DNA of 55,617 nucleotides. It comes from an uncultured Pseudomonadales bacterium. Lineage in GTDB: Bacteria; Patescibacteriota; Microgenomatia; UBA1400; PJMF01. The notes beneath the pieces were generated by a model. It was not told where the DNA came from and made no database searches. It was given only the letters and a program-made list of their open reading frames with translations. The position numbers and the translations under genes were made by a program. Shown piece by piece: positions 17,774 through 54,574 of this stretch (positions are counted from its first letter, which is position 1; each line of letters begins with the position of its first letter). Location: contig CAZKVV010000004.1 of the NCBI GenBank assembly GCA_964556485.1, positions 1 through 55,617 on the forward strand. The letters run 5' to 3'.

Positions 17774-17779
17774 TCTTTC

Positions 17780-21672: not shown

Positions 21673-21942
21673 ATGGCACTATCAAAAGCCCAAAAAATCC
21701 AAATTATTAAAGACTTTCAGTTGTTTGAAGGCGATACTGGATCTCCAGAAGTGCAGGTGGCATTGCTTACTGCTTCTGTTCAAGAACTCACTTCGCATCT
21801 TGGTTCTCACAAAAAAGACGATCACTCTCGACGTGGTCTTCTTAAACAGGTGGCAAAGCGCCGCAGACTTCTCAACTTCTTGCTTTCACGCAGTGAAGAG
21901 AGATATCGCAAGCTTATTGACTCACTTGGTCTCTCTAAGTAA
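21673..21942 (+). CDS. rpsO: 30S ribosomal protein S15
   Basis: [24 protein letters not shown]. Confidence 0.98.
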
Positions 21943-22032
21943 TTTCACTAACGCAATCTCAATAACGTAGTAGCCAGATTGGAAGAGTAAAACGCTCTAT
22001 CTTCTGGTATACTGTACTCAAGTACAAGTGTA

Positions 22033-22111
22033 GGGAGAGCTGAGGATTCAAGAGAGACGATAACGTATTTTAGTGTTGTTATCTTTTCTCCAGAATACTT
22101 CCAGTTCTCTC
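22033..22111 (+). promoter_or_regulatory. Long hairpin in the pnp leader
   Basis: GAGAGCTG/CAGTTCTC, ATTC/GAAT, GAGAGA/TTTTCTC and GATAACG/TGTTATC; extended -10 TGgTATACT at 22005-22013. Confidence 0.6.
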
Positions 22112-22145
22112 AAGTTAAGTGCCCTTTATGGGCGAAAGGAATCGC

Positions 22146-24452
22146 ATGTCATATCCTACGTATCCAAATACGTTTAAGAGAGATATTGTCGTGGGTGATA
22201 AGACTATCACCATAGAAGTAGGTAAATACTCCCAACAAGCAAGCGCAGCTGTGCTTGCCACCTGTGGTGAAACCACCGTTCACGCTACTATTGCCTTGGG
22301 AAGAAAAGTTAACTTGGGGTATTTTCCTCTTTCAGTCGATTTTTCAGAAAAATTAAATGCAGCTGGAATCATTAAAGGTTCACGTTGGGTTAAACGTGCT
22401 GGCAGACCACTCGATGAAGAGGTACTCAAAGGTCGTGTTATTGACCGCTCACTTCGTCCACTTTTTCCAGACGGAATTACTAATGAAGTGCAAATCATTG
22501 TAACTGTGTTTTCATATGATGGTGAAAACGATCCAGATATGTTGGGCTTGCTCGCAAGTGCAATTGGTCTCTCTATTTCTGAAATTCCATTTGATGGTCC
22601 TATGGCAGGACTTCGTGTGGCTTACAGCAAAGAAACCCAAAAATTTATCTATAACCCAACCGATACAGAACTCAAAGAGTACTCAGATTTGGACTTAGTT
22701 GTTTCAGGTTCGGGTGATGCAATTGTCATGGTTGAATCTGGAGCTAACGAAGTTTCAGAGAAAGTAATGGTGGAAGCACTGCTTAAAGCTCAAGATGAGT
22801 TGGGTAAAGTGTGTACCGCAATTACTGCCATCACTGCAGAAATTGGCAAGAAAAAAGTTGAGTTAGTTTCAGCAGAAGACATTGCAAAAAAGGAAGCTAC
22901 TACGGCACTTGCCGAAGAAATTTTTGCTGGATTTAGTGCTGAACTCAAGGCAGCAGTCCTCAAGTTGGCTCAGTTAGAAGAAGCTGGCTTGCCAGAAATC
23001 GAAGCTACTATCTTGGAGAAGCTCAATGCAGATAGAACTGAAGAAGAACAGTTAGAAAAAGGTGCTGTTTCAGCAGCTGTACAAAAAGTTCTCAAAAAGA
23101 TTGCTCGTACTATGATCATTGACGAAAAAACTCGTCCTGATGGTCGCAAAACTGATGAAATCAGACAAATTTGGTGTGAAGTTGATGTTTTCGCAAGAAC
23201 CCATGGTTCAGCAATGTTTAAACGTGGCGCAACGCAAGCTATTACAGTTGCAACCTTAGGCAACCCATCTTTAGGTCAACTCATTGAGAGCATCGATGGT
23301 GAAGAAACTCGACACTACTTGCATCACTACAGCATGCCTCCCTATGCATCTGGTGAAGCAGGTAGATTTGGTGCGCCAAAACGCCGCGAAATCGGTCATG
23401 GTGCGCTAGCAGAACGTGCGCTTCGTCCAATGATCCCAACACATGCGGAGTTCCCTTACACTATTCACGTCGTGTCAGAGATCGTCAGTTCTAATGGTTC
23501 TACCTCACAGGCATCTGTCTGTGGTTCAACTTTGTCACTCATGGCAGCAGGTGTTCCACTGAAAAGACCAGTTGCAGGCATTGCGATGGGACTTATGAGT
23601 GATGGCAAAACCTACGTTGTCCTTTCTGACATTCAAGGACTAGAGGATCACGTTGGCGACATGGACTTTAAAGTTTCAGGTACTAGCGAAGGTATTACTG
23701 CAATTCAGATGGACATTAAGCTGAAGGGAATTCCTCGTGAAGTGCTCGAGCAAGCGCTCGAACAAGCACGTATCGGTAGAGTTCATATTCTCGGTGAAAT
23801 GGCTAAAACGATTGATCAGCCAAGAACGGAGTTGAGTGAGTTTGCACCAAAGGTAAAACAACTTACCATTCCAGCTAACCGCATTGGCGAGTTGATTGGT
23901 CCTGGAGGCAAAGTTATTAAGGGAATCATCGAGGTGACAGGTGCAGACATTAATGTTGATGAAGACGAAGAAAATGAGCTCGGTATTGTGAACATTTCTT
24001 CTTCAGATCAAGCAAAAATTGAGCACGCATATAGCATAATCACTGGCATGATGCGCACTGTTGAAGTTGGCGAGTCCTTTGAAGGAACCGTTACTAGAGT
24101 TGAAAGCTATGGAGCTTTTGTGCAGTATTTGCCCGAACGCGAAGGTCTCGTTCACGTTAGTGCTATGAGTACGGAATATGTTCGTGATGCAAGCGACTTA
24201 GTTAAAGTGGGCGACACCGTCCAGGTTAGAATTGCCGAAATCAAAGATGATGGTAAGATCGGCCTCACAATGCTTACACCAGAACAAGAAGAAGCAGCAA
24301 AAGCACAACGTGCTCAAGCACGCAGTGAACGTGGTGACTCTCCCGATAGGGGAGGCTACCGTGGTGGCGCTGGCGGAGGAGACCGACGTGGTGGAGGTGG
24401 CAGCAGAGGTGGAGATCGCGGTGGAAACCGTGGTTACGATCGAAGACGCTAA
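22146..24452 (+). CDS. pnp: Polyribonucleotide nucleotidyltransferase
   Basis: RLIDR-like RVIDRSLRPLF, HGSAMFKRG, RREIGHG, SNGSTSQAS, GDMDFKV, KH and S1 domains, RGG-rich tail. Confidence 0.98.
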   Translation: MSYPTYPNTFKRDIVVGDKTITIEVGKYSQQASAAVLATCGETTVHATIALGRKVNLGYFPLSVDFSEKLNAAGIIKGSRWVKRAGRPLDEEVLKGRVIDRSLRPLFPDGITNEVQIIVTVFSYDGENDPDMLGLLASAIGLSISEIPFDGPMAGLRVAYSKETQKFIYNPTDTELKEYSDLDLVVSGSGDAIVMVESGANEVSEKVMVEALLKAQDELGKVCTAITAITAEIGKKKVELVSAEDIAKKEATTALAEEIFAGFSAELKAAVLKLAQLEEAGLPEIEATILEKLNADRTEEEQLEKGAVSAAVQKVLKKIARTMIIDEKTRPDGRKTDEIRQIWCEVDVFARTHGSAMFKRGATQAITVATLGNPSLGQLIESIDGEETRHYLHHYSMPPYASGEAGRFGAPKRREIGHGALAERALRPMIPTHAEFPYTIHVVSEIVSSNGSTSQASVCGSTLSLMAAGVPLKRPVAGIAMGLMSDGKTYVVLSDIQGLEDHVGDMDFKVSGTSEGITAIQMDIKLKGIPREVLEQALEQARIGRVHILGEMAKTIDQPRTELSEFAPKVKQLTIPANRIGELIGPGGKVIKGIIEVTGADINVDEDEENELGIVNISSSDQAKIEHAYSIITGMMRTVEVGESFEGTVTRVESYGAFVQYLPEREGLVHVSAMSTEYVRDASDLVKVGDTVQVRIAEIKDDGKIGLTMLTPEQEEAAKAQRAQARSERGDSPDRGGYRGGAGGGDRRGGGGSRGGDRGGNRGYDRRR

Positions 24453-24509
24453 TCTAGGTTGCGCAATAGCTCGCTAAACAATACTCTCACAATCGAGTAT
24501 ACTTGTAAC

Positions 24510-25379
24510 ATGCATATTTCTGCGCTAAAAACTGCCCAGCAGATGTTCTGCTTACTAGAACTTGATAGAGCTCCAATGCTCGCTGAGGCTATGGGACTTT
24601 CAATTGTAGACCCGGCACATCAGGTCGTGCTAGATAGATTGTTATCACAGATGGTGGAGCTGTATAGTCCGCATGTCTCAGGAATTGTACTGAGTCCCGA
24701 GCACACCTTTCATCATGTAGGTGTGCTTGATGTGAATTGCGCTCCCATTCTGTCAATGGAAAAGAAAACAACTTCGGTAGATCCATTGATTCCACCAACA
24801 TTTGTGGATAACTGGAGTATTGAAAATATCGCTAATAACTATGCTGTAGCAAAGTTAGAGTTGTATTATCATCCCTCAGAAGAACATGCAGCCCTTAAAA
24901 AGCAGATGGTTGCTGAAATTTACGACTATTGTCACTATGAAGGCATCGACTTTATTTTAGAACTACTTGTATATCATCCTGGAGCGGAAAAACCTTCACT
25001 GCAGAACTACACAGAGTCACAATTGGTGGCAGTGCAAGAATTTAGAGACAGTTGTGATTTGATGGCACTCGAATACTTAGGAGATAGTCTTTCAGCGGTT
25101 ACGATAACTGCCGAGCTTGATATTCCTTGGATTATGACCATGCGAGAGCTCGAGTATGATCAATGTAAGCGTGAACTACGAGCTTCACTAGAAAGTGGTG
25201 CGCAGGGTTTTCTTATTGGTGATGTGTTTTGGCCACGCCTAGATCCCGCTCTTGGTACCGAAGGACAAGTTGATGTGAGTGTGCTTGAGCAAGAGATTGC
25301 GCATCAAAGTCGAGACAGAGTGCTAGAATTAGTGAGAATAACAACTGAATTTGGTAAGAATGATTCAGCAAAAGAATAG
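24510..25379 (+). CDS. LacD/tagatose-bisphosphate-aldolase-like TIM barrel, probably catalytically altered
   Basis: SGIVLSPEH, LSMEK, WSI, AKLELYYHP, FILELLVY, GFLIGDVFW match class I LacD segments. Confidence 0.75.
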   Translation: MHISALKTAQQMFCLLELDRAPMLAEAMGLSIVDPAHQVVLDRLLSQMVELYSPHVSGIVLSPEHTFHHVGVLDVNCAPILSMEKKTTSVDPLIPPTFVDNWSIENIANNYAVAKLELYYHPSEEHAALKKQMVAEIYDYCHYEGIDFILELLVYHPGAEKPSLQNYTESQLVAVQEFRDSCDLMALEYLGDSLSAVTITAELDIPWIMTMRELEYDQCKRELRASLESGAQGFLIGDVFWPRLDPALGTEGQVDVSVLEQEIAHQSRDRVLELVRITTEFGKNDSAKE

Positions 25380-31709: not shown

Positions 31710-32195
31710 ATGACACGCGCTTCACATCATCTGACAGAAAACGTAAAGTTGCTGCAAAAAGCGGTGGTAGTGCATCGTGGTGAAGTATTATTGCTGCGAC
31801 GAGATGCTAACTCCGCCTCGCGAGCCCTACAGTGGGATTTACCAGGTGGAAATTCTGAGTGGCCAGATGGTAGTCGTAGTGGAAATAACTTGCATGCTCA
31901 AGACATTGCTCGAGAAATTGAAGAAGAAACTGCAATTCATATTATTCCCGATCAATTTAAACATGACACACTGTTGCTTTTCGAAACCTATTTTTTTGCT
32001 GAAGTGTTCACCATACTTGTCGGTTGGTTAGTTGAATTGCCAGAAGATTTTGACAGAGATCAAGTGAAAATTAGCCACGAGCACGACCAACTGGTATGGC
32101 AGCCTTTTGAAGAAAGTGCAGGATATGACTTTGGTTTTGCCAATGAGTTTATTGTGCCAATGATTCGACGCGCAAAGGATAAAACGCATGGCTAG
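31710..32195 (+). CDS. NUDIX hydrolase inserted in the SUF operon
   Basis: WDLPGG...IAREIEEETA, ISHEH. Confidence 0.85.
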   Translation: MTRASHHLTENVKLLQKAVVVHRGEVLLLRRDANSASRALQWDLPGGNSEWPDGSRSGNNLHAQDIAREIEEETAIHIIPDQFKHDTLLLFETYFFAEVFTILVGWLVELPEDFDRDQVKISHEHDQLVWQPFEESAGYDFGFANEFIVPMIRRAKDKTHG

Positions 32196-33609
32196 GTTTG
32201 CACAAAAAACCACCACTCAGTTTGAGGCTACAGATGTGTATGAGCACGGTTATTCCTATCCCATTTCTACCTACACACACATTTCGAAACCAGGTTTGAG
32301 TGAAGCAGTGGTGCGTGAGATTTCGCACTTGAAGCAAGAGCCTGAGTGGATGCTTGGGTATCGTTTGCAAGCACTGGCACAATTTGAAGCAAAAAAAAAT
32401 CCACTTTGGGGAGCAGATCTTTCTGACATTCATTTTGATGCGATTCGTTATTATTTACGTGCTAGTGATGAACAAAGCAAATCTTGGGATGATGTCCCGC
32501 CTGAGGTGAAAGCTACTTTTGATCGTTTGGGAATTCCCGAGGCAGAACGAGATGTCTTAGCTGGTGTAAAAGCTCAGTACGATTCAGAAGTGGTGTATGG
32601 ATCGCTCAAAGATGTTTGGGCAAAAGACGGTGTGGTATTTTTATCAATGGATGATGGATTGAAACAGTATCCAGAGTTGGTAAAAGAGTACTTCGGCACG
32701 CTCATTCCTAGCGGTGACAATAAGTATTCAGCATTGAACTCAGCAGTTTGGAGTGGTGGATCTTTTGTATACATCCCAAAAGGTGTTAATGTAAAAATGC
32801 CGCTGCAAACGTATTTTAGAATTAATGCTGAGAATGCTGGACAGTTTGAGCGTACGCTCATCATTGTGGATGAAGGTGCTAATGTTCACTATATCGAAGG
32901 CTGCACAGCTCCTAACTTCAGCAGTGGTTCTCTCCATTCAGCAGTTGTTGAAATTTTTGTCAAAAAAGGAGCGCGTTGTCAGTACACCACCGTCCAAAAC
33001 TGGTACAAGAATGTGTATAACTTGGTGACCAAACGTGCCCATGTGGATGAAGAGGCTCAAATGATTTGGACAGACTTTAACATGGGTTCCAAAGTGACAA
33101 TGAAGTATCCTGGTTTTGTGTTGGCTGGTAAAGGTGCCAAGGGTGAAACACTTTCTATGGCGTTAGCGGGAAGTGGACAGCATCAAGATACTGGTTCAAA
33201 AGCAATTCATTTAGCTCCATATACCAGTTCAACCATTTTATCGAAATCAATCAGTAAAGATGGTGGACGCACCAGTTATCGTGGACTCGTCAATGTTGGG
33301 CCGCATGCGCATGACAGTAAAAATACGGTGATTTGTGATGCGCTGCTGCTTGATAGTCGTTCACGCTCTGACACGTATCCTGTCGACAAAATTTTTAATT
33401 CTCGTGTTGAAGTACAGCATGAAGCAACGGTGTCAAAGATCGGTGATGATCAGCTGTTTTATCTGATGAGTAGAGGAGTAACCGAGGAAAATGCACGCAA
33501 AATGATTGTAAATGGCTTTGTTGAAGATTTGGTTAAAAAATTGCCACTCGAGTATGCAGTGGAGATGAATCGACTCATTGATCACGAAATGGAAGGAAGC
33601 ATTGGCTAA
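32188..33609 (+). CDS. sufB: Fe-S cluster assembly protein SufB
   Basis: NSAVWSGGSF, GQFERTLI, EGCTAP, CDALL, QHEATV. Confidence 0.98.
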   Translation: MARFAQKTTTQFEATDVYEHGYSYPISTYTHISKPGLSEAVVREISHLKQEPEWMLGYRLQALAQFEAKKNPLWGADLSDIHFDAIRYYLRASDEQSKSWDDVPPEVKATFDRLGIPEAERDVLAGVKAQYDSEVVYGSLKDVWAKDGVVFLSMDDGLKQYPELVKEYFGTLIPSGDNKYSALNSAVWSGGSFVYIPKGVNVKMPLQTYFRINAENAGQFERTLIIVDEGANVHYIEGCTAPNFSSGSLHSAVVEIFVKKGARCQYTTVQNWYKNVYNLVTKRAHVDEEAQMIWTDFNMGSKVTMKYPGFVLAGKGAKGETLSMALAGSGQHQDTGSKAIHLAPYTSSTILSKSISKDGGRTSYRGLVNVGPHAHDSKNTVICDALLLDSRSRSDTYPVDKIFNSRVEVQHEATVSKIGDDQLFYLMSRGVTEENARKMIVNGFVEDLVKKLPLEYAVEMNRLIDHEMEGSIG

Positions 33610-34097
33610 TGCAGACGTTTACCATCGACCGCGACCAATATCAAGAAATACAACTCACCAAACCTGGTGAGTACACTGTGGAGTTAGTTGGCGAAGGGGC
33701 CCAGGCAACCATCACTGGTGTTTGGGATGCGCGTGGTAAAGATGTGGTCAGTGTTACAGTTATCATTCATCACAAAGCGCCAAATACTCGGGCTCAAACA
33801 ACACTGCATGGCGTGGGTCGTGACACCTCTTTTGTGCGATTTGTAGGCCGAATCATTATCGAACCTAACTGTGGGAATAGTAATTCATTCTTAACTGAAA
33901 GAGTGTTGCTACTATCAGATACTGCCAGAGCAGAAACAGTGCCCGACTTAGAAATTCACACTGATGATGTTAAGTGCTCGCACGCTGCAAGTATTAGCAG
34001 AATTCCAGAACAACAATTATTTTATTTACAAAGTCGCAGCATTGCTCGCGCAACTGCGGAGGACATGATAGTTGCGGGTTTTTTAGAGTTAGCATAA
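33609..34097 (+). CDS. sufD: Short SufD-like protein
   Basis: VPDLEIHTDDVKCSHAAS, LFYLQSR; only 162 aa. Confidence 0.85.
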   Translation: MQTFTIDRDQYQEIQLTKPGEYTVELVGEGAQATITGVWDARGKDVVSVTVIIHHKAPNTRAQTTLHGVGRDTSFVRFVGRIIIEPNCGNSNSFLTERVLLLSDTARAETVPDLEIHTDDVKCSHAASISRIPEQQLFYLQSRSIARATAEDMIVAGFLELA

Positions 34098-43343: not shown

Positions 43344-43355
43344 TAATGAAGAGTG

Positions 43356-43865
43356 ATGAAAAAAGTCTTACTGCCCTCAATTTTATTACTAATTGTTTTA
43401 TTCTTTCCAAGTTCAGCGTTTGCACAGTCGATCGGTATAACTAGTATCGGTGGCGTTCCCACTACAGGAAACATAACGACATGGACTCACCAAGGTTTTA
43501 ACCCATTACTCGTTGGTGTTGCTACGCCTTCCGCAGTCGTGCGTATCGATATTGGTAGCGCAACTGCTTCAACAGCTGCGGCTTCAACAGGTGCATGGCA
43601 GTACAAACCAACCGACCTTGATGCATTGGGTAGTTATTCCGTTTCAGTTTCTTCAGGTGGTCAGAGCATGTTATTTACACTCGGAATAACTGCAACCGCT
43701 TCGGCGACTCCAACTCCTGCAAGTACTGCTAGCGCACAACTTCCAACCGAACTTCCTAAGACAGGTTCTGATGACATTGTATTGTTATTTGTCGGTGGAG
43801 CATTCTTAATATTGACAGGAAGCTACACGGGAGCATATCTTATGGGATTTTTTAGAGAAGAATAG
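43356..43865 (+). CDS. Secreted Ser/Thr-rich protein with an LPxTG sorting motif
   Basis: Signal peptide (AFA|Q), LPKTG at 43752-43766 followed by a TM helix. Confidence 0.7.
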   Translation: MKKVLLPSILLLIVLFFPSSAFAQSIGITSIGGVPTTGNITTWTHQGFNPLLVGVATPSAVVRIDIGSATASTAAASTGAWQYKPTDLDALGSYSVSVSSGGQSMLFTLGITATASATPTPASTASAQLPTELPKTGSDDIVLLFVGGAFLILTGSYTGAYLMGFFREE

Positions 43866-43900: not shown

Positions 43901-44962
43901 ATGAGTGACTACAAACAGGTACTTGAACAAGAGATTCAGCAAATTAAAGATAAGGTTGCAGCCGCGACCGATCTTCCCGAAGAGATGCGCAGTAAGATTG
44001 ATAAAGATATAATTGCGCTTGAACGTAGCGTAGCTGTTGGCAACTACGACGAGAAGTACGAGAAGGTTTCTCGCTATGTTGACTGGATGCTAAAAGTGCC
44101 CTGGAAAAAAGAGTCAGAAGACATTTTGGACGTTCAAAAAACCGCTGCCATCTTCGAAAAGCATCATTTCGGCATGATGGAGGTCAAAGAACGTTTTTTG
44201 GAATACGTTTCAGTGCTTAAACTCAGAAAGCAGAATTTTGGTGATGCGGAGTTTAGAGCCCCAATTTTGCTTTTAGTTGGTTTGGTAGGTACTGGTAAAA
44301 CGACGTTTGCTATTTCTCTGGCTGAAGCGCTGGGTAGGCAGCTTGTTCGCATTCCTTTTGGAGGTATGGGATCAGCCTTAGAACTTCGTGGTAGCTCACG
44401 ATTGAATTTAGAGGCTGAGCCGGGCAAAATTCTCAAGGGCGTATGTGAAGCCGGCGTACGAAATCCCATCATTTTGCTAGATGAAATTGATCGCGGTAGC
44501 GAAGACGCAAACAAAGACATTATGGGCGTTTTGGTTGAGTTACTTGACCCCAATCAGAACGTTGCATTTAGAGATGCCTACGTCGATTTTCCAATTAACC
44601 TTTCACATGCAATTTTTATTGCTACAGCAAACAATACAGTTGCTATTGCAACAGCTGTTATGGACCGTATGGAAAAAATCACCATGCCGTCTTATACCGA
44701 CCAAGAAAAGATAGTTATTGCTCAACGCTATGTGTTGCCGGGTTTGCTGAAAGAGGCCGGACTCAAGCCTGAACAATTAGTAATTAAAGATGAAGTATGG
44801 CCCAATATTACTCGTCCTCTTGGATATGATGCTGGAATTCGTACACTCCAAAGGACTTTGCAAGGTGCAGTGCGCAAAGCTGCCAGATTAATAGTTGAAA
44901 AAGGTTATCCCGTCATTGTAATTAACATGGACAATCGAAAAATATTTTTACCTCAGTACTAA
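43901..44962 (+). CDS. Lon-type AAA+ module without N-domain or protease domain
   Basis: YVDWMLKVPW, HFGMMEVKERFLEY, GLVGTGKT, LLDEID, ELLDPNQN..FRD, ATAN, MDRME, AGIRTL. Confidence 0.9.
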   Translation: MSDYKQVLEQEIQQIKDKVAAATDLPEEMRSKIDKDIIALERSVAVGNYDEKYEKVSRYVDWMLKVPWKKESEDILDVQKTAAIFEKHHFGMMEVKERFLEYVSVLKLRKQNFGDAEFRAPILLLVGLVGTGKTTFAISLAEALGRQLVRIPFGGMGSALELRGSSRLNLEAEPGKILKGVCEAGVRNPIILLDEIDRGSEDANKDIMGVLVELLDPNQNVAFRDAYVDFPINLSHAIFIATANNTVAIATAVMDRMEKITMPSYTDQEKIVIAQRYVLPGLLKEAGLKPEQLVIKDEVWPNITRPLGYDAGIRTLQRTLQGAVRKAARLIVEKGYPVIVINMDNRKIFLPQY

Positions 44963-44999
44963 CTCGGGTGGCATTAGTTGTTCATGGTACGATATCGCT

Positions 45000-45626
45000 A
45001 TGGATTTCATCACGACCATCGACGAATTGCGAGAACATATCGAATCCCAGGCTAATGTGTTGCCACTGGTTGCAAACAAGTTGGAAATTATTCCAGGTGA
45101 AGGCCCACAAACGGCAGAAATAGTTTTTATCGGTGAAGCACCTGGATATCATGAAACAGTTGCGCGGAAGCCGTTTGTTGGTAGGTCTGGGCAGTTGTTT
45201 AGATCTGCGTTGCGTGATGCTGGCTTTGCTGAGACGGATGTATTCATCACTAATATTGTAAAAGCGAGACCGCCTGAAAATAGAGATCCACTTCCCTATG
45301 AAATTGGAGCGTATGCACCATTTTTAGATAAAGAAATCGAGTTGATTTCGCCAAAGCTCATTGTTACTCTCGGCAGATTAAGTATGGCAAAATTTTTACC
45401 AGATGTGAAAATTTCACAAGTTCATGGTCGACTGCACAAAGTCAAGTGGAATGAAGTAAGTCAGTTTGTTCTGCCAATGTATCATCCTGCAGCTGCATTA
45501 AGGGCAACACAAGTAAAGAACTCTTTTCTCTCTGACTTTGGTAAAATAAACAAGATTGTGCAGTGGATAAGGGAACAAAACAGCTCAGCTTTACTTACTG
45601 AAGCCGTCACAGAATACCTCTTTTAG
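45000..45626 (+). CDS. Family-4 uracil-DNA glycosylase lacking Fe-S cysteines
   Basis: GEAPG, PFVGRSG, TNIVKARPPENRDP, HPAA; no Cys. Confidence 0.92.
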   Translation: MDFITTIDELREHIESQANVLPLVANKLEIIPGEGPQTAEIVFIGEAPGYHETVARKPFVGRSGQLFRSALRDAGFAETDVFITNIVKARPPENRDPLPYEIGAYAPFLDKEIELISPKLIVTLGRLSMAKFLPDVKISQVHGRLHKVKWNEVSQFVLPMYHPAAALRATQVKNSFLSDFGKINKIVQWIREQNSSALLTEAVTEYLF

Positions 45627-45634
45627 AAAAAATA

Positions 45635-46438
45635 ATGAAGATTCTTTTACTTTCGATTCCATTCATAACCACTTTGCTTGGTTTTATCATTTATCGTTAT
45701 CAAGATAAAAGGCAGTGGCAGATTTTTAGGTTAGATCTAGTGCAGTTCACTTATTTATTTTTATTTGCACCAACCATTTATGTATGGTCGAAGTCGTTTT
45801 TATTTTATTTGCTTCGCAATGAGCTTAATTTGAGCTTAACTCCCACAGGACTTTTTGTGATTGATACGGTGTACTCGGTGCTTGCCTTTGTTGTGTTTGG
45901 AGCAACAGCTATGCACTCACTTACCAAGACATTTTGGCTGCGACGTCATCATGATCCCAAGTTTGACATTTATAGTTTGTCAGAATATTTTCACCTGTAT
46001 TGGACGCATATAGTTATGTGGAATGGAATAATGATCCTCTTAACCTTTATTGCTTTTGTCAACGTTTTCGTACCATTTGCTGGTGAAAATATGCAAAAAA
46101 CATTTTGGGCAATAATTGTGTTAGGTCTTGCATCTGGTGTAAGTACCTTTATGGGTATTTGGGGTTCAGATCCGGGCCAGGGCAACTTTATGAGATTGAT
46201 GAAACTGTGTTTTATGATGTTCTTTTTCATTCATGTTGTGATGTACTTTGTTTTTGATCCACCATTTAAGTTAGCTCATAGTATGTATTGGTTTTCGTTT
46301 TTCCACTTTTTGGGAGGTGCTGTAGGCGCATTCTTCTTTGAAAAATCGGAAAAAGCTAAGCAAGTTCGAGGATTATGGTTGCATGTAGGTTGGGGGGAGA
46401 ATAAAGATATTCAGCTCTTCCCGTTCAAAAAGAAATAA
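45635..46438 (+). CDS. Multi-pass membrane protein of unknown function
   Basis: About seven hydrophobic helices. Confidence 0.7.
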   Translation: MKILLLSIPFITTLLGFIIYRYQDKRQWQIFRLDLVQFTYLFLFAPTIYVWSKSFLFYLLRNELNLSLTPTGLFVIDTVYSVLAFVVFGATAMHSLTKTFWLRRHHDPKFDIYSLSEYFHLYWTHIVMWNGIMILLTFIAFVNVFVPFAGENMQKTFWAIIVLGLASGVSTFMGIWGSDPGQGNFMRLMKLCFMMFFFIHVVMYFVFDPPFKLAHSMYWFSFFHFLGGAVGAFFFEKSEKAKQVRGLWLHVGWGENKDIQLFPFKKK

Positions 46439-46465
46439 TAGTAGATACAACAAAAAGGATTTTGT

Positions 46466-48130
46466 ATGGACACTTTAAAAATTATTCCACTTGGCGGCAT
46501 GGGTAATGTTACCCAAAATATGTTTGTGTATGAGTATGGAGATGAAATGCTCATCGTTGATTGTGGCATTGGCTTTCCTGATTCATATATGCCAGGTGTT
46601 GATATTCTCATTCCTGACACTTCATACGTGTTAAAAAGAATAGAGCAGGGCGCGCGTATTGTTGGTATGATCTTCAGTCATGGTCATGATGACCATATTG
46701 CTGCAACACCATATATTTTTCCACAGCTGCCTGACGATTTTCCACTTTTTGCCTCTGCATTGACTGCTGGATTTGCTGAGCAGCGAATGATGGATGGAAA
46801 AATTTCAAGATCTGTACAAATCATGGCTGATCTCGAGACATTTTCTATCGGCACTCATTTTTCAGCCTATCTTATTCCAGTTACTCATTCAGTTCCCGAT
46901 ACACGACATGTGGTTATTCAAACTCCAGAGGGAATTGTATATCACGGAAGTGATTTTAAGCTCGATCCAGCCCCAGTTGATGGACAATTGACAGATATGG
47001 CTTCGATCAGAGCACTCAAAGATAAAGATGTGTTGTTAATGCTCGTAGACTGTTTACGTGTTGAAAATAGCGAATGGGTGAAGTCTGAGTCAACAGTGGG
47101 TCCTACTATTCAAAAAATTATGGAGAACACTCAGGGCAAACTGGTAATGACATTGATGAGTTCGCATATTCATCGCATTCAACAAACCCTTGATGCAGCT
47201 GAAAAAGTTGGCAGAAAAGTGGTGTTTATTGGTCGTTCTGTTGAGCAAAATGTCGAAGTTGCTTCGCGTCTGGGTAAGCTCATAATCCCAGTTGGCATGC
47301 AAGTTGATAAAAAGCATCTCGATCAAGTTGCTGATAAAGAACTATGCATCATTATTGCAGGCAGCCAGGGTCAAGAAGGTTCATCTTTGGTGCGAGCAAT
47401 TTACGGAGATCACCCAAGTGTGCATATTAAACCAACGGATACAGTGGTCTTTTCGGCAGATGCGATTCCTGGAAACGAAATTAATTTTTATAGCGCAATC
47501 GACGAACTATCAAGAAATAATGTTAAAGTTATTTATCCAGCAATTATGCCTGACTTGCATCAATCAGGTCACGCAAGTTTGCCAGAGCAAATTGAGTTGG
47601 TTGAAGCAGTTAAACCAAAGTACCTTATGCCAGTTGGTGGTGCAGACAGACATAGAGTGCTGTTTTATCATAAAGTTGCGACTCCACTAGGATACACGCA
47701 AGGAACAACTTTGCTTCCTGAAACGGGTGAGGTGTTGGGATTTAGAGATAGAACCTTCTCGGTTGTTGATTCCATAATGCTTCGACCCCAAATTATTGAT
47801 GGTCTTGGTGTGGGAGACGTGGGTCCTATGGTGCTTTCTGACAGAAGAACACTTGGTCAATCCGGTATAGTCGTAGTAGTCATTCCTCGACGACAACGAG
47901 AGTTTGATCTCAAAAACATGCAGATTATTTCTCGAGGATTTGTGTTCATGCAAGATGCTGAAGAAGTCATCTCTTTTATTGAGCGCGAGGCCGCGAGCGT
48001 AGTGGCCAATCCAGAAGGATATAGCTCGGATGAGCAACTGGTGAAACTGATCGAAAAACGATTAGCGCGAAAACTGTACAAAGTAATTCGTCGTGAACCA
48101 ATGATAGTTCCTGTTATTCTTGATATGTAG
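46466..48130 (+). CDS. rnj: Ribonuclease J
   Basis: PLGGMG, DCG, HGHDDH, THSVPD, DFK, SSHIHRIQQ, GSQGQE, HQSGH. Confidence 0.95.
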   Translation: MDTLKIIPLGGMGNVTQNMFVYEYGDEMLIVDCGIGFPDSYMPGVDILIPDTSYVLKRIEQGARIVGMIFSHGHDDHIAATPYIFPQLPDDFPLFASALTAGFAEQRMMDGKISRSVQIMADLETFSIGTHFSAYLIPVTHSVPDTRHVVIQTPEGIVYHGSDFKLDPAPVDGQLTDMASIRALKDKDVLLMLVDCLRVENSEWVKSESTVGPTIQKIMENTQGKLVMTLMSSHIHRIQQTLDAAEKVGRKVVFIGRSVEQNVEVASRLGKLIIPVGMQVDKKHLDQVADKELCIIIAGSQGQEGSSLVRAIYGDHPSVHIKPTDTVVFSADAIPGNEINFYSAIDELSRNNVKVIYPAIMPDLHQSGHASLPEQIELVEAVKPKYLMPVGGADRHRVLFYHKVATPLGYTQGTTLLPETGEVLGFRDRTFSVVDSIMLRPQIIDGLGVGDVGPMVLSDRRTLGQSGIVVVVIPRRQREFDLKNMQIISRGFVFMQDAEEVISFIEREAASVVANPEGYSSDEQLVKLIEKRLARKLYKVIRREPMIVPVILDM

Positions 48131-48235
48131 AATACTTGAACTGTTTGTTATAGTAAGAACGACATCCTTGACAACACGCGTATTATCCTATAATATTTAT
48201 GTAGATGCGATATTGTTATAGATATATGGAAACTA

Positions 48236-50422
48236 ATGGGAAGAAAAAAGAAATTTAGTCCACTGAAGCTTTCTCTAAAACCAGAGACAATTCATGCAAT
48301 CCTGGGCATAGTTTTTGTGCTTGTAGGATTATTGGTTATTGTCTCGTTTACGGGTCAAGGCAGTGCGCTCTCATGGCTCAATGATCTCCTCAAGCAAAAA
48401 CTAGGTTTATCAACCTTGTTTATTCCATTCGTGATGATTTCGGCCGGGATGATGCTATTTCAAACCAAATGGGCCTGGTCCAAGCCAAATGTGCTACTGG
48501 GGGCTTTGCTGATTTTCTTTGGCGTTCTTGGAGTTGGTAAAACAGGCGCGATTGGTCAACAAGTATTTTTGAACGTCGCGGATTTAATTTCACCAGTTGG
48601 TGCATTTTTATTCTTTACTGCAGTTGCTGTGAGTGGGTTCTTTGTGGTAACTCAGTTCTCAGTGACCGAGTTGTTTGAGCTAAAAGCTGTACTTTTCCCA
48701 GCAAAATTTGACAAGTCTGGTAAAACAGTAAAAGAAGAGGCTAAGCAAAAAGATGAGATTGCTGCAGCTAAAGGCTTCACTTTACCCAAGTTGGCTTTGC
48801 CTTTTGGTAAGAAAGACACATCGTTTAGTATTAATCCTCATACAGATGCAGTCCAACCTGCAGAGGATGAAGCAACTGGTACTGCAGTTGCAGGTGTTCC
48901 TCCAACTCCTCAAGTAAAATCGGGTGAGATTGATATCAATGAAACCATTCTTCAACCCAACACTACTCAAATGATTTGGGAGTATCCACCGCTATCACTG
49001 CTTTCTAATTCAGAAGGTGGCGAAGCAAATAGAGGTGACGTCAAGCATAATGCCGATGTTATTGAAGCAACACTCGAATCTTTTGGAATTAAAGCAAAAG
49101 TTGCTGAGGTTAATTTTGGTCCATCAGTTACTCAATATGCATTGGAAATTTCTCGAGGCACTAAGCTTTCAAAGATCACTGGTTTAGCGACTGATATGGC
49201 TTTGGCATTGGCCGCACCAGGCGGTCAGGTGCGTATTGAAGCTCCGATTGCTGGGAGATCATTAGTTGGTGTAGAGGTTCCAAACTATTCTGCGCAGTAT
49301 GTGACGTTAAAGAAGATGCTGGGTAGTAAGGCGATGAAGCAGCATCCATCTAAGTTGGCAACGGCACTTGGTATTAACGTTGCAGGTAAACCAGTAATTA
49401 TGGACATTTCTAAAATGCCTCATTTGCTTATTGCTGGTGCTACTGGTTCAGGTAAGTCTGTTGCAGTTAACACCTTTTTGATGTCCATGTTGTTTAGATC
49501 AAGTCCAAGCGAAGTTAAGTTTATTTTGGTCGATCCTAAGCGCGTGGAACTAACTGGATATAATGACATTCCTCATCTCCTGGTTCCAGTGATTGTCGAG
49601 CCTAAAAAGGTGGTTTCTGCACTTAAATGGGCCACTCATGAAATGGATCGTCGCTACAAGCAGTTGGCTGAAGTTGGTGTTAGAAACATTACGGGCTTTA
49701 ATGAGTTGGCAGGCTATGCAGCAATGCCGAATATCGTCATTATCATTGATGAATTAGCAGATATTATGCTGTTTGCACCAAGTGAAGTTGAAGAAAGTAT
49801 TACTCGCATTGCGCAGATGGCACGTGCGGTTGGTATTCATTTGGTGTTGGCAACTCAACGACCTTCTGTTGATGTTATCACTGGTTTGATCAAAGCAAAC
49901 ATTCCAGGAAGAATTTGCTTTAATGTATCATCTATGACAGATTCGCGTGTGGTTCTAGACTCACCAGGTGCTGAAAAGTTGTTGGGTAAGGGTGATATGT
50001 TATTTTTGCCTCCAGATCAAGCTAAGCCAATGCGTTTGCAAGGTACCTACGTTTCTGATCAAGAAATTAAATCGCTCATCGACTTTATTAAAGCACAGGG
50101 GCAAGCTCCAAACTATGAAGAAGACATCACCACGAAGTATAAGGTTGGTGAAGGTGGCAACGCGGGGGCTTCTGCATTAGATGATAAAGATGAGCTCTTC
50201 GACGATGTCGTTGATTTTGTCGCTCAACAACAAAAAGGTTCATCCTCACTTATTCAGAGAAGATTTTCAGTAGGATATAATCGAGCTGCACGCATTCTAG
50301 ACCAACTCTATATAGCAGGCATGGTTGGTCCTCAAGATGGCAGCAAACCCAGAGATGTGATTATGCAAGCAATTGCAGAGTATAAATCTAAGCGTGCTGG
50401 TCAACATACGTCAGAGTCGTAA
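48236..50422 (+). CDS. ftsK: DNA translocase FtsK/SpoIIIE
   Basis: 4-TM N-terminus, HLLIAGATGSGKS, IDELAD, LATQRPSVDV, GAEKLLGKGDML, gamma domain GYNRAAR. Confidence 0.97.
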   Translation: MGRKKKFSPLKLSLKPETIHAILGIVFVLVGLLVIVSFTGQGSALSWLNDLLKQKLGLSTLFIPFVMISAGMMLFQTKWAWSKPNVLLGALLIFFGVLGVGKTGAIGQQVFLNVADLISPVGAFLFFTAVAVSGFFVVTQFSVTELFELKAVLFPAKFDKSGKTVKEEAKQKDEIAAAKGFTLPKLALPFGKKDTSFSINPHTDAVQPAEDEATGTAVAGVPPTPQVKSGEIDINETILQPNTTQMIWEYPPLSLLSNSEGGEANRGDVKHNADVIEATLESFGIKAKVAEVNFGPSVTQYALEISRGTKLSKITGLATDMALALAAPGGQVRIEAPIAGRSLVGVEVPNYSAQYVTLKKMLGSKAMKQHPSKLATALGINVAGKPVIMDISKMPHLLIAGATGSGKSVAVNTFLMSMLFRSSPSEVKFILVDPKRVELTGYNDIPHLLVPVIVEPKKVVSALKWATHEMDRRYKQLAEVGVRNITGFNELAGYAAMPNIVIIIDELADIMLFAPSEVEESITRIAQMARAVGIHLVLATQRPSVDVITGLIKANIPGRICFNVSSMTDSRVVLDSPGAEKLLGKGDMLFLPPDQAKPMRLQGTYVSDQEIKSLIDFIKAQGQAPNYEEDITTKYKVGEGGNAGASALDDKDELFDDVVDFVAQQQKGSSSLIQRRFSVGYNRAARILDQLYIAGMVGPQDGSKPRDVIMQAIAEYKSKRAGQHTSES

Positions 50423-53267: not shown

Positions 53268-53308
53268 GTGCATGTTTTTCGTGTTTCTGCTGTGGTACTA
53301 TGAAGTAT

Positions 53309-54574
53309 ATGCAAGAAATCCTTCCTGATGCTTCCGAGCAATCACAATCAAACTTCGCCTTTGTTCCTAAGAAGAATTCGCCGTTATTAGTGGTCTATGG
53401 TCTGGGAATTGTGTTGCTGATCTTGCTTTTTGCCAAGAGTTACAGCTTTTTTATGTCTGGTAAGGATGTGGAGTCGCCAGAAACTGACGTAGCTGTTGTT
53501 GCTTCACCAGAACTTGCAACTGATTCTGAATCAACCTCACTGGCAACTATTACTGACAGTGACAGTCCTGCAGGTGCTGGTACCACTAACAGTGCACTTG
53601 TACCTGTAACCAGTAAGTATCGTGCATATACCCATGTTGGTAAGGATGGCATTTTACAAGTTGTGCCTATTGATGTTGCAGATGCACCATATGCCGCAAC
53701 TAAGTATGGGACAGTGTATGGTGGTGGTAGTTTGGGCCAAGGTTCATCTGGTCCAGAATTAGCACCAGACATGCAAAAATTTGCATTTGCTCGTGAAGGC
53801 GTTCTCAAACTTGTAAGTGTGGATGGTGCCACAGAGCGTGTTATTCCACTTGCAAATGTTGAATATGTTACAGGCTGGTCTCCAGACAGTTCTAAAATGA
53901 TTGCCTACGTTTCATCAAAAAGTATTGAAAACCTTTTCGCACAAGGTGGCCCAGGATCTCCAGTTAAACTTGAAGTTACAGTTGATCTCACACAGCCAAC
54001 TGGCGGTTTTTATCTCATCGATTTCAACAAAAACACTCTTCGACATATGTCAGAGCTAGATGGAATGTTAGTGCATTCATGGGTTGATGCTGATTCTCTT
54101 ATTATTTCTGATGGGGCAGGTCAATATGAAAACTTTATGTACTACAACCTGGCAACGCAAAAGGTGAGTACAGAGACTGTTAAGAAACTTAATGATGTAT
54201 TTGGTCATCAAATGTCCTTTTCAGCAAATGGCAGCAAGTGGTCAACGGTAACGTCTGTGATAAAAAATAACCTTGATAAGGCACAGATAACTATGGGTAA
54301 CTTTCCTAACTTTGGAGATATTGCCCGCATTGAAGTGCCATGGGCTCGCAAACAAGGTCCAGTTATGTCGCCTAGTGGTGATAAAGTTGCAATTTGGGGT
54401 TCACCTGGAGATGGTACAGTCGGTGATGTCTATATTTATCGTGGTACCACTTTGGACTATGTTGCAAAAGGCAGGCCATCACGATGGATAGATAACGATA
54501 GATTAGTATTTGTGAATGAAGATGCTGTGTACACGTACAACTTTGCAACTAGTGAGACGAAGCAGCTAAAATAG
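53309..54574 (+). CDS. Membrane-anchored TolB/PD40-like beta-propeller
   Basis: N-terminal TM, Ser/Thr linker, repeats LAPDMQKFAF, WSPDSSKM, FSANGSKW, MSPSGDKVA. Confidence 0.7.
   Translation: MQEILPDASEQSQSNFAFVPKKNSPLLVVYGLGIVLLILLFAKSYSFFMSGKDVESPETDVAVVASPELATDSESTSLATITDSDSPAGAGTTNSALVPVTSKYRAYTHVGKDGILQVVPIDVADAPYAATKYGTVYGGGSLGQGSSGPELAPDMQKFAFAREGVLKLVSVDGATERVIPLANVEYVTGWSPDSSKMIAYVSSKSIENLFAQGGPGSPVKLEVTVDLTQPTGGFYLIDFNKNTLRHMSELDGMLVHSWVDADSLIISDGAGQYENFMYYNLATQKVSTETVKKLNDVFGHQMSFSANGSKWSTVTSVIKNNLDKAQITMGNFPNFGDIARIEVPWARKQGPVMSPSGDKVAIWGSPGDGTVGDVYIYRGTTLDYVAKGRPSRWIDNDRLVFVNEDAVYTYNFATSETKQLK

What the first reader, a model, noticed from the sequence alone, without database searches (positions are those of the whole stretch)
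43901..44962. Protease-less, pore-loop-less Lon ATPase: candidate new AAA+ machine
Seen: 353 aa covering only the pre-AAA helices and the AAA+ module, with a clean start and stop and no adjacent Ser-Lys protease gene. Walker A (GLVGTGKT), Walker B (LLDE), sensor-1, the Arg finger (MDRME) and sensor-2 (GIRTL) are retained. The substrate-gripping loop RGHRRTYIG is replaced by RGSSRLNLE, which has no aromatic residue. Inference: ATP hydrolysis is selected but polypeptide threading is not, pointing to a remodeller, scaffold or DNA-binding switch, or a modulator that co-assembles with a full Lon.
Basis: partly seen in the sequence, partly recalled or inferred. Interest (0 to 1): 0.7.

Follow-up and report, generated by a model that had tools for sequence, protein, structure and literature searches.

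The report
Conserved protease-less Lon ATPase of Patescibacteria
This gene encodes an intact, strongly conserved relative of the Lon protease that keeps only the ATP-burning motor and lacks the protease; it belongs to an old, undescribed family in the ultra-small Patescibacteria whose substrate-gripping residues are no longer conserved.

Summary
ORF 43901-44962 (+) encodes 353 aa that match LonA only over the last three helices of the HI(CC) domain plus the AAA+ module. Every ATPase motif is present, and pore-loop-1 reads RGSSRLNLE instead of RGHRRTY[IV]G. It is not a truncation or an assembly error. 247 species-level genomes hold a close relative, and 78 complete copies are 351-354 aa in the same gene order, with dN/dS of 0.005-0.04. 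No Lon protease or Lon N-domain sequence lies in the window, or within ±10 kb in 80 relatives. The gene belongs to a monophyletic, protease-less clade (50/50 NJ bootstraps against canonical Lon) found in Microgenomatia-type lineages, Dojkabacteria and Saccharimonadales. Only four module positions that are ≥90% conserved in Lon fall below 50% in the clade. Two of them are the pore-loop-1 Thr-Tyr, and the pore-loop-2 aromatic is also gone. A new acidic loop motif is fixed around them. Best reading: a ring-forming, hydrolysis-competent Lon-derived ATPase that no longer threads substrates into a protease, and so probably a non-degradative remodeller. Its client is unknown. Whether these genomes also hold a full Lon could not be tested. 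I found no paper describing the family. Verdict: new variant of a known kind, moderately high interest.

The parts
43901..44962 (+). Complete gene for the protease-less Lon-type AAA+ ATPase (353 aa, stop included)
   Evidence: The AF2 model has mean pLDDT 85.3. Foldseek TMq is 0.78-0.87 to LonA/LONP1 ATPase modules; against 6n2i, the E. coli Lon AAA+ fragment, TMq is 0.86 and TMt 0.90.
43901..44095 (+). N-terminal three-helix bundle (aa 1-65), equivalent to the C-terminal part of the LonA HI(CC) domain
   Evidence: Helices 2-21, 27-46 and 50-65 in the model. It aligns to LonA residues ~250-310. The domain name is from PMC6722904.
44132..44686 (+). Nucleotide-binding (large alpha/beta) domain of the AAA+ module (aa 78-262)
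   Evidence: Pfam AAA at aa 123-261; secondary structure.
44279..44302 (+). Walker A GLVGTGKT (aa 127-134); canonical Lon has GPPGVGKT
   Evidence: G127, G130, G132, K133 and T134 are invariant in the 50- and 16-sequence alignments. L128 versus Pro in Lon is a clade-specific fixed difference.
44387..44425 (+). Rebuilt pore-loop 1, RGSSRLNLEAEPG (aa 163-175); the Lon Tyr corresponds to N169
   Evidence: At position 169 Lon has Y in 100%; the clade has F25/R23/H23/Y7 %; the window's subfamily has L/I/H/V/N/Y/R/F, with L168 and L170 invariant.
44468..44485 (+). Walker B IILLDE (aa 190-195) with catalytic Glu195
   Evidence: D194 and E195 are invariant.
44492..44530 (+). Rebuilt pore-loop 2, RGSEDANKDIMGV (aa 198-210); the aromatic seen in most Lons is replaced
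   Evidence: position 203: clade A66/G15 %, Lon F43/Y19/H7/W7 %. An aromatic occurs in this loop in 0% of the clade and 71% of Lons.
44618..44635 (+). Sensor-1 segment IATANN (aa 240-245; N244)
   Evidence: N244 is invariant.
44660..44674 (+). Arg-finger segment MDRME (aa 254-258; R256, which acts in trans)
   Evidence: D255 and R256 are invariant.
44687..44905 (+). Lid (small alpha-helical) domain (aa 263-335), including sensor-2 GIRTL (aa 312-316, nt 44834-44848)
   Evidence: Pfam Lon_lid at aa 284-335; G312, R314 and L316 are invariant.
44906..44959 (+). C-terminal strand and tail (aa 336-353, ...RKIFLPQY), homologous to the Lon linker that normally leads into the protease domain
   Evidence: Aligned with the Lon '..NLK.[FY]LG' segment. 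The protein ends exactly at the AAA/protease boundary in the whole clade.
46466..50422 (+). Context only: RNase J (46466-48130) and FtsK (48236-50422), part of the inherited backbone pnp - [Lon-AAA] - rnj - ftsK
22119..24452 (+). Context only: PNPase. It lies directly upstream of the Lon-AAA gene in other lineages and is separated by ~20 kb here.

Best explanation
The gene encodes an intact member of an old, monophyletic offshoot of LonA that lost both the N-terminal substrate-binding domain and the Ser-Lys protease domain. It has been inherited vertically in Patescibacteria ever since. What remains is the last three helices of the HI(CC) domain, the nucleotide-binding domain and the lid. This is the natural counterpart of the laboratory fragment EcLon(235-584). 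Shown here: the fold, the domain boundaries, the absence of protease sequence, the clade's breadth, very strong purifying selection, and invariance of every residue needed to bind and hydrolyse ATP, including the trans-acting Arg finger. Inferred: it assembles into a ring or spiral (probably a hexamer) and hydrolyses ATP. The two aromatic pore-loop residues that LonA uses to pull polypeptides are unconstrained or lost here, and a new conserved, acidic loop motif replaces them (clade LRG-Q-S-R-x-x-P-D-A-E-P-G; this subfamily S-R-L-x-L-[GE]-[SA]-E-P-G). So the ATP cycle is probably no longer used for processive threading into a degradation chamber. It more likely drives non-degradative remodelling, holding or assembly of a specific, still unknown client at the rebuilt axial face.
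For: Identity and boundaries. Not a truncation: the top 120 database relatives are all 352-389 aa with 99-100% query coverage. 247 species genomes hold a close relative. 78 complete copies are 351-354 aa with no internal stop. Gene order is the same (PfkB 79/80, RNase J 71/80, UDG 59/80). Selection: dN/dS is 0.005-0.042 in pairs with dS 0.16-1.0; K133, T134, D194, E195, N244, R256 and R314 are invariant. No protease: tblastn with 61 Lon_C and Lon-N queries gives no Lon_C and no significant N-domain hit in the window, and none in 80 + 18 related loci. Among 69 canonical-Lon control loci, 68 have Lon_C and 67 have the N-domain. The extensions found in other members are disordered Q/P/S-rich tails, not domains. 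Monophyly: 50/50 NJ bootstraps. Loss of grip constraint: only E159, E161, T168 and Y169 equivalents are >=90% conserved in Lon and <50% in the clade. An aromatic occurs in loop 1 in 33% of the clade against 100% of Lons, and in loop 2 in 0% against 71%. In MtaLonA, Tyr397 and Trp431 contact the substrate and are required for degrading Ig2 (PMC8503904). Ring assembly without the protease domain is plausible: EcLon(235-584) packs as an open helical hexamer in crystals, and the paper describes closed-ring hexamers for the MtLon fragments 242-793 (4YPL) and 207-492 (4YPN) (PMC6722904).
Against: There is no experimental evidence for this family. A third of the clade keeps Phe or Tyr at the Tyr site, and the window's subfamily keeps invariant Leu168 and Leu170, so polypeptide contact and even translocation are not excluded. 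In substrate-free E. coli Lon the nucleotide-binding domains do not touch each other (PMC8244335). From that I infer the hexamer depends largely on the protease-domain ring, so stand-alone assembly is an assumption. Whether the same genomes encode a full Lon or another peptidase partner was not testable here. No CIRCE operator lies upstream, so there is no sign of HrcA heat-shock control to back a chaperone role. The family is missing from a cultivated Saccharibacterium, so it is not universally required.
Confidence: 0.55

Rival explanations
1. Split Lon or trans-acting unfoldase. The ATPase docks onto a separately encoded peptidase (a stand-alone Lon_C, ClpP or other) elsewhere in the genome and still feeds it substrates.
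For: The protein ends exactly at the AAA/protease linker, and the linker-like tail K.[FY][LIV]P is conserved. ClpP without an annotated ClpX exists in one Patescibacterium. One divergent member lies next to M16 and M23 peptidase genes.
Against: No Lon_C coding sequence lies within ±10 kb in 80 genomes, in 18 diverse loci, or in the 55.6-kb window. The residues needed for threading are the very ones that lost constraint. The alignment to Lon shows no inserted loop that could serve as a docking element. From memory, ClpX docks on ClpP through an IGF loop. The only Lon_C-like domain in the Southlakia proteome is in ComM.
Confidence: 0.12
2. Accessory ATPase of RNA decay or nucleoid/division machinery. 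It acts with PNPase, RNase J or FtsK, between whose genes it has sat since before the Saccharimonadia-Microgenomatia split.
For: The order pnp - [Lon-AAA] - rnj - ftsK recurs on one strand with gaps of 14-200 bp in distant lineages. Among 18 diverse loci, PNPase is upstream in 9, RNase J downstream in 10 and FtsK nearby in 8. Among 69 canonical lon loci each appears once. LonA and LONP1 are reported to bind nucleic acids (the abstract of PMC9657610, mentions mitochondrial DNA binding; otherwise from memory).
Against: The same pnp-X-rnj-ftsK backbone exists in Southlakia with an unrelated, non-essential gene in the slot. From memory, rpsO-pnp ... rnj-ftsK is also an old gene order in Firmicutes and Actinobacteria, so adjacency may be inherited order only. 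The family core is not basic (median pI 6.1 against 6.8 for Lon modules), and the new loop motif is acidic. The link to PNPase is broken in the window's own lineage (about 20 kb apart), and neither neighbour is present in L008 or L092.
Confidence: 0.15
3. Modulator of a full-length Lon encoded elsewhere, either mixing into its hexamer or capping it.
For: It retains the Lon-type interface elements (Arg finger, lid). Natural Lons with 2-3 tandem Lon-type AAA+ modules exist, so stacked or multi-module Lon ATPase arrangements are possible in nature.
Against: Per module, the tandem Lons are no closer to this family than ordinary Lon (130-250 against 250-290 bits). Among the ten closest canonical Lon clusters checked, the three that carry organism names belong to Clostridiales, Veillonellaceae and Deinococcus, not CPR. 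One fully annotated Patescibacterium has no Lon at all. The family is ~60% diverged from Lon with 13 fixed differences, which argues for an independent function.
Confidence: 0.08
4. Recent truncation, pseudogene or assembly/gene-calling artefact.
For: None beyond the unusual architecture.
Against: searches show the same length in hundreds of genomes from many assemblies, dN/dS <= 0.04, no internal stops, and only 37 bp to the next gene, which is UDG.
Confidence: 0.01

Closest known systems
LonA protease ATPase module (e.g. E. coli Lon fragment 235-584, PDB 6N2I; B. subtilis 3M6A; M. taiwanensis 4YPL/7FD4)
   Same: Same fold and the same boundaries as the excised fragment (against 6n2i TMq 0.86, TMt 0.90). 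36-41% identity. Same Walker A/B, sensor-1, Arg finger, sensor-2 and Lon-type lid.
   Different: It is a natural stand-alone protein with no N domain and no Ser-Lys protease domain. The pore-loop-1 Thr-Tyr and the pore-loop-2 aromatic are unconstrained or lost. There are thirteen clade-specific fixed substitutions, for example GL.G.GKT for GPPGVGKT and LG.DAGIR for YT.EAGVR.
LonC (Lon-like protease with no ATP-powered unfolding activity; PMC3391209)
   Same: A natural Lon derivative in which one of the two coupled activities has been given up.
   Different: It is the mirror image. By that paper's title, LonC is a Lon-like protease without ATP-powered unfolding; that it keeps an ATPase-dead AAA-like module is from memory. 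This family keeps a hydrolysis-competent ATPase and has no protease at all.
Non-proteolytic members of the Lon-related AAA+ group, such as RuvB (grouping of HslU/ClpX/Lon/RuvB from memory)
   Same: About 350-aa stand-alone ATPases with a large and a small AAA+ domain.
   Different: By sequence the family is unambiguously Lon-derived: TIGR00763 E 2e-87, and no RuvB family model matches the query. It has no winged-helix DNA-binding domain, and its axial loops are acidic rather than basic.
ClpB/Hsp104 disaggregases
   Same: Non-degradative AAA+ remodellers. The LonA HI(CC) + AAA+ arrangement has been likened to ClpB H1(M) + NBD2 (PMC6722904).
   Different: It has a single AAA+ module, no M-domain coiled coil (only its last three helices) and no aromatic pore-loop signature. 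There is only a weak generic match to ClpA/ClpB-type models.
BrxL and other Lon-like defence ATPases
   Same: Lon-related AAA+ proteins with non-housekeeping roles.
   Different: No BrxL match; the defence library gives only weak generic P-loop hits, E >= 1.7e-5. The gene sits in a housekeeping backbone, not a defence island.

Membership tests
LonA protease (endopeptidase La, MEROPS S16, TIGR00763) | C-terminal Ser-Lys proteolytic domain (Pfam Lon_C, PF05362) | tested here: not met
   No Pfam hit. tblastn with 61 Lon_C domains finds nothing in any frame of the window, and the control was positive. The next gene, 37 bp downstream, is UDG.
LonA protease (endopeptidase La, MEROPS S16, TIGR00763) | N-terminal substrate-binding domain (PF02190) and full HI(CC) coiled coil | tested here: not met
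   The protein starts at the equivalent of LonA residue ~250. An in-frame stop lies 46 nt upstream of the ATG. The only Lon-N tblastn hit in the window is a chance-level match (E 0.004) on the opposite strand ~20 kb away.
LonA protease (endopeptidase La, MEROPS S16, TIGR00763) | Whole-protein score above the curated equivalog cutoff | tested here: not met
   294.6 bits against a cutoff of 608.05; NF008053 gives 228.6 against 891.
LonA protease (endopeptidase La, MEROPS S16, TIGR00763) | Pore-loop-1 Tyr, 100% conserved in 68 canonical Lons and in contact with the substrate | tested here: not met
   It is Asn169 here. The Tyr site reads F25/R23/H23/Y7 % in the clade. The role of the Tyr is from PMC8503904.
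AAA+ ATPase, Lon-type module | Walker A GxxGxGK[ST], Walker B hhhhDE, sensor-1 Asn, trans Arg finger, sensor-2 Arg | tested here: met
   G127-T134, D194/E195, N244, R256 and R314 are all invariant across the clade.
AAA+ ATPase, Lon-type module | Lon-specific lid domain (PF22667) and Lon-like fold | tested here: met
   Lon_lid E 6e-10. All 50 listed Foldseek matches are Lon ATPase modules, TMq 0.77-0.87.
AAA+ ATPase, Lon-type module | Hexameric ring or spiral assembly and measurable ATP hydrolysis | not testable with these tools
   Inferred only, from the invariant trans-acting Arg finger and from crystal packing of Lon fragments.
LonB / LonC | A protease domain, plus a membrane insertion in the AAA+ module (LonB) or a degenerate ATPase (LonC) | tested here: not met
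   No protease domain. The ATPase motifs are intact. The alignment to LonA shows no insertion.
BREX BrxL / defence-system ATPases | A match to BrxL or another defence model, and a defence-island context | tested here: not met
   Only weak generic hits. The context is housekeeping.
HrcA/CIRCE heat-shock regulon | A CIRCE operator upstream | tested here: not met
   The only CIRCE-like site in the window lies before hrcA at 14427-14453. None of 80 relatives has one within 1.2 kb upstream.

The most novel reading that the evidence does not exclude
The family is a previously unrecognised, non-proteolytic AAA+ machine that is core to many Patescibacteria. In this reading it is a Lon-derived ATPase whose rebuilt acidic axial loops act on a dedicated client, and it works with the RNA-decay enzymes PNPase and RNase J, between whose genes it has been kept since before the Saccharimonadia-Microgenomatia split. 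That would make it a degradosome-type ATP-dependent accessory replacing a DEAD-box helicase or a chaperone.
Probability: 0.12. Interest if true: 0.8.

Novelty: new variant of a known kind. Interest (0 to 1): 0.6.

Why it matters
In every Lon described so far, the ATPase and the protease sit on one chain. LonC showed that the ATPase activity can be given up. This family shows the opposite: the protease is discarded, and the motor is kept under very strong selection for what looks like a very long time. The sequence record amounts to a clean natural experiment. Across the whole module, the positions that lost constraint are essentially the substrate-gripping ones. That helps separate the residues an AAA+ motor needs to hydrolyse ATP from those it needs to thread polypeptides. 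It also bears on proteostasis in Patescibacteria, whose small genomes carry few AAA+ proteins (FtsH here, and no Lon in a cultivated Saccharibacterium). Finally, it flags a database problem: JGI labels many members 'ATP-dependent Lon protease', although they have no protease domain.

Tried and rejected
1. Detached tier of a stacked Lon. The deep search ranked Lons with 2-3 tandem AAA+ modules first. Cutting them into modules showed each scores 130-250 bits, no closer than ordinary Lon, so they ranked high only because module scores add up. Rejected as an explanation and kept as a side observation.

2. Degenerate protease or N-domains in longer members (P0161, P0141, P0128, P0148, P0360). The extensions are low-complexity disordered tails.

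3. C-terminal 'FLPQY' as a new docking motif of the HbYX type. It aligns with the ordinary Lon linker, and the last residues are not conserved outside the subfamily. Dropped.

4. Heat-shock control through HrcA/CIRCE. No operator was found.

5. Nucleic-acid specialisation judged from composition. The family is not basic.

6. Defence-system membership. No match.

7. Functional coupling to UDG. The two genes are adjacent only within the Microgenomatia subgroup, and even there in 59 of 80 loci.

8. Literature. Seven searches for a protease-less Lon or for Lon in CPR found nothing relevant. Several returned zero papers, so this is weak negative evidence.

9. Tn-seq phenotype from the Southlakia study. 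That organism lacks the gene.

10. Whole-genome co-occurrence with a full Lon.

11. The first all-pairs dN/dS run timed out. It was repeated on close pairs only.
Full report
**1. The observation**

ORF 43901-44962 (+) is real and complete. It starts with ATG and ends with TAA, giving 353 aa. An in-frame stop at 43853-43855 and the lack of any in-frame start in between exclude a longer N-terminus. An AAGG lies 12 nt before the ATG, and a sigma-70-like site lies at 43812-43841.

Pfam sees only AAA (aa 123-261) and the Lon-specific lid (aa 284-335). The NCBIfam equivalog for Lon, TIGR00763, matches only its positions 253-567 of 795. The score is 294.6 bits, far below the 608 cutoff. Against solved structures the best match is B. 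subtilis LonA (3m6a, E 9e-67). There 'RGHRRTYVGAMPG' aligns with 'RGSSRLNLEAEPG'.

- Walker A, aa 127-134
- Walker B, aa 190-195
- sensor-1, N244
- Arg finger, R256
- sensor-2, R314

**2. Not a truncation or an artefact**

- The 120 best database relatives are all 352-389 aa, cover 99-100% of the query and are 73-94% identical. Where named, they come from Woesebacteria, Pacebacteria, Microgenomates or Patescibacteria.
- A scan of one genome per species found 247 genomes with a close relative.
- 78 complete copies taken from the 80 fetched loci are 351-354 aa and have no internal stop.
- Gene order is nearly fixed and on one strand: RpiB, RPE, LOG-like, PfkB, Lon-AAA, UDG, (TM protein), RNase J, FtsK. 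PfkB is found in 79/80 loci, RNase J in 71/80 and UDG in 59/80.
- NG86 dN/dS for pairs with unsaturated synonymous sites (dS 0.16-1.0) is 0.005-0.042.
- tblastn with the protease domains and N-domains of 61 canonical Lons finds no Lon_C and no significant N-domain match in any frame of the window, and none within ±10 kb in the 80 genomes. It did find both Lon genes of a control locus.

**3. The wider family**

An exhaustive search of 1.84 billion cluster representatives, followed by cutting hits into modules, separates three groups:
- Short proteins of 350-670 aa that score 273-430 bits against the family profile.
- Ordinary ~800-aa Lons at about 250-290 bits.
- Lons with two or three tandem AAA+ modules, whose individual modules score only 130-250 bits.

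The short proteins all stop at the AAA/protease boundary. A profile search shows them in Dojkabacteria, Shapiro-, Gottesman-, Roizman- and Levybacteria, the Microgenomates group and Saccharimonadales. They are 348-548 aa long and have only AAA and Lon_lid domains. Extra length in some members consists of Q/P/S/T-rich disordered tails, not degenerate domains.

In NJ trees the clade separates from 34 canonical Lons in 50 of 50 bootstrap replicates. Ten of the closest canonical Lon clusters were checked; the three that carry organism names belong to Clostridiales, Veillonellaceae and Deinococcus. No CPR full-length Lon bridges the gap. This points to one old loss of both flanking domains.

**4. 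What changed and what did not**

I compared 150 clade members with 68 canonical Lon modules, column by column.

*Kept.* The ATPase residues are invariant in both groups.

*Lost constraint.* Only four positions are ≥90% conserved in Lon and <50% in the clade:
- Two acidic residues just before pore-loop 1.
- The pore-loop-1 Thr-Tyr pair, which is T100/Y100 % in Lon. In the clade it reads L36/V17/A17/F13 % and F25/R23/H23/Y7 %.

An aromatic residue occurs in loop 1 in 33% of the clade against 100% of Lons. In loop 2 it occurs in 0% against 71%.

*Newly fixed.* Around the variable apex the clade has its own motif: LRG-Q-S-R-x-x-P-D-A-E-P-G. Lon has IRG-H-R-R-T-Y-[VI]-G-A-[ML]-P-G. In the window's subfamily the loop is S-R-L-x-L-[GE]-[SA]-E-P-G. 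Leu168 and Leu170 are invariant, and only the Tyr-equivalent position varies (L, I, H, V, N, Y, R, F; Asn in the window). Thirteen further positions are fixed differently in the two groups. Examples are GL.G.GKT against GPPGVGKT, D-I-M-G-V against D-P-[AS]-[SA]-A after loop 2, and L-G-x-D-A-G-I-R against Y-T-x-E-A-G-V-R at sensor-2.

In M. taiwanensis LonA, Tyr397 (loop 1) and Trp431 (loop 2) contact the translocating chain and are required for degrading Ig2 (PMC8503904). So the pattern is the one expected if hydrolysis stayed under selection while the aromatic grip did not.

**5. Structure**

AlphaFold2 on a 50-sequence alignment gives mean pLDDT 85.3 and pTM 0.79. The model has a three-helix bundle (aa 2-65), the α/β domain and the lid. 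All 50 Foldseek matches listed against the PDB are Lon ATPase modules, with TMq 0.77-0.87. Against 6n2i, the E. coli fragment 235-584, TMq is 0.86 and TMt 0.90.

That fragment was produced by limited proteolysis and is described as the C-terminal part of HI(CC) plus the full AAA+ module. It packs as an open helical hexamer in crystals. The same paper describes closed-ring hexamers for the MtLon fragments 242-793 (4YPL) and 207-492 (4YPN) (PMC6722904). The natural protein is thus the genomic equivalent of a well-studied laboratory fragment.

One caveat applies. In substrate-free E. coli Lon the nucleotide-binding domains do not contact each other (PMC8244335). From that I infer the protease ring contributes much of the hexamer's stability. 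Assembly of the stand-alone protein therefore rests on the invariant trans-acting Arg finger and is not shown.

**6. Context**

The window is a Patescibacteria chromosome segment of housekeeping genes. It carries XerC/D-type recombinase, TrpRS/TyrRS-class synthetase, FtsH, a 5'-3' exonuclease, HrcA-GrpE-DnaK-DnaJ, NusA, IF-2, PNPase, SOD, SufBCDS/NifU, RpiB, RPE, PfkB, UDG, RNase J and FtsK.

In more distant lineages the Lon-AAA gene sits directly between PNPase and RNase J or FtsK. In L094 the order is PNPase, 156 bp, Lon-AAA, 46 bp, RNase J, FtsK. In L091 it is PNPase, Lon-AAA, FtsK. In the Saccharimonadales locus L090 it is S15, PNPase, two genes, Lon-AAA, RNase J.

| Neighbour found in the locus | 18 diverse clade loci | 69 canonical lon loci |
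|---|---|---|
| PNPase | 9 (upstream) | 1 |
| RNase J | 10 (downstream) | 1 |
| FtsK | 8 | 1 |
| Lon_C | 0 | 68 |
| Lon N-domain | 0 | 67 |

(All.)

This shows vertical inheritance from before the split of these classes. It is a lead towards RNA decay or cell division, but a weak one. Southlakia epibionticum has the same PNPase-X-RNase J-FtsK backbone with an unrelated, non-essential gene in the slot (PMC10633639, Table S1). From memory, rpsO-pnp ... rnj-ftsK is also an old gene order in Firmicutes and Actinobacteria.

**7. Is there a full Lon elsewhere?**

I could not scan whole genomes. The complete proteome table of S. epibionticum shows Lon_C only inside ComM/YifB. It has no Lon N-domain and no K01338; FtsH is essential and ClpP non-essential. 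So at least one Patescibacterium lives without any Lon, and it also lacks this family. For the Microgenomatia-type lineage of the window, the question stays open. It is the most important next computation.

**8. Other tests**

- The only CIRCE-like operator in the window lies before hrcA (14427-14453). None lies upstream of the Lon-AAA gene here or in 80 relatives.
- The family core is mildly acidic, with median pI 6.1 against 6.8 for Lon modules.
- The defence-system library gives only weak generic P-loop hits.
- Seven literature searches found no description of a protease-less Lon family.

**9. Conclusion**

The gene is a member of an old, monophyletic, strongly constrained, protease-less branch of LonA that is widespread in Patescibacteria.

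The most likely mechanism is an oligomeric, hydrolysis-competent Lon-type motor whose axial loops have been rebuilt. Its work would no longer be processive delivery of polypeptides to a protease, but some non-degradative remodelling of an unknown client.

I put about 0.9 on the identity and evolutionary statements. I put about 0.45-0.5 on the non-threading remodeller reading. The remainder is shared between a trans-acting peptidase partner, an RNA-decay or division accessory role, and modulation of a full Lon.

It is a new variant of a known kind. Database labels are uninformative ('AAA family ATPase') or wrong ('ATP-dependent Lon protease').

Noticed in passing
P0121-P0125, P0127 and others; L005:57-3398 and L005:3581-6355: Some Lon proteases carry two or three tandem Lon-type AAA+ modules (each with its own Lon_lid) ahead of a single Lon_C domain. 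They are 1000-1700 aa long. One (P0122, 1113 aa) sits directly upstream of a second, 924-aa Lon. I know of no described multi-module Lons; their organisms were not identified.
   Followed up: partly
window 18825-24452 and 43901-50422; L006, L009, L090, L091, L094-L100: The gene order nusA-infB-(rpsO)-pnp-[Lon-AAA]-rnj-ftsK is conserved from Saccharimonadales to Microgenomatia. In the window's lineage about 20 kb (SOD, Suf, pentose-phosphate genes and others) has been inserted between pnp and the Lon-AAA gene.
   Followed up: partly
window 43353-43865 (+): This 170-aa secreted protein has a weak Ig-like (Big_13) hit and a C-terminal LPKTG motif followed by a hydrophobic stretch and a charged tail, which is a sortase-type anchor signal. 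It lies between PfkB and the Lon-AAA gene in only 7 of 80 related genomes, so it is a lineage-specific insertion.
   Followed up: partly
window 14427-14453 (+): A CIRCE-like inverted repeat, TTAGCAATC-N9-ATTGCTAA with 3 mismatches to the consensus, lies immediately upstream of the hrcA-grpE-dnaK-dnaJ operon (14469-18643). It is the only such site in the window.
   Followed up: yes
P0141 aa 1-326, P0128 aa 1-145, P0148 aa 1-143, P0360 aa 1-~95, P0161 aa 346-548: Saccharimonadales-type and Dojkabacteria members of the family carry long Q/P/S/T/N-rich, apparently disordered N- or C-terminal tails that the Microgenomatia-type proteins lack.
   Followed up: partly
L010-L089 record titles; L084 = CP011212.1: Many MAG records holding this CPR gene in CPR synteny are titled 'uncultured Pseudomonadales', 'Methylococcaceae', 'Limisphaerales' or 'Vitreimonas'. 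CP011212.1 is titled TM6 GW2011_GWF2_28_16, but the locus has 36.7% GC and Microgenomates-type gene order. The taxon labels or titles are probably wrong.
   Followed up: no
window 27412-29490, 5279-7042, 53300-54574, 24459-25379 (+): These large ORFs (692, 587, 424 and 306 aa) have no Pfam match at E <= 1e-5. They are uncharacterised proteins in an otherwise housekeeping region.
   Followed up: no
window 32188-34097 (+): A full SufB/D-type gene (473 aa) is followed, with a one-base overlap, by a 162-aa ORF that matches only the C-terminal part of the SUFBD core (profile positions 95-232). It is either a short SufD or a truncated paralogue.
   Followed up: no
PMC10633639 Table S1, SEML1_0493-0495: In Southlakia epibionticum, ClpP is present and non-essential, but no ClpX orthologue (K03544) is assigned. 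A 507-aa hypothetical protein lies between trigger factor and clpP, near where clpX sits in many bacteria (from memory, the usual order is tig-clpP-clpX).
   Followed up: no
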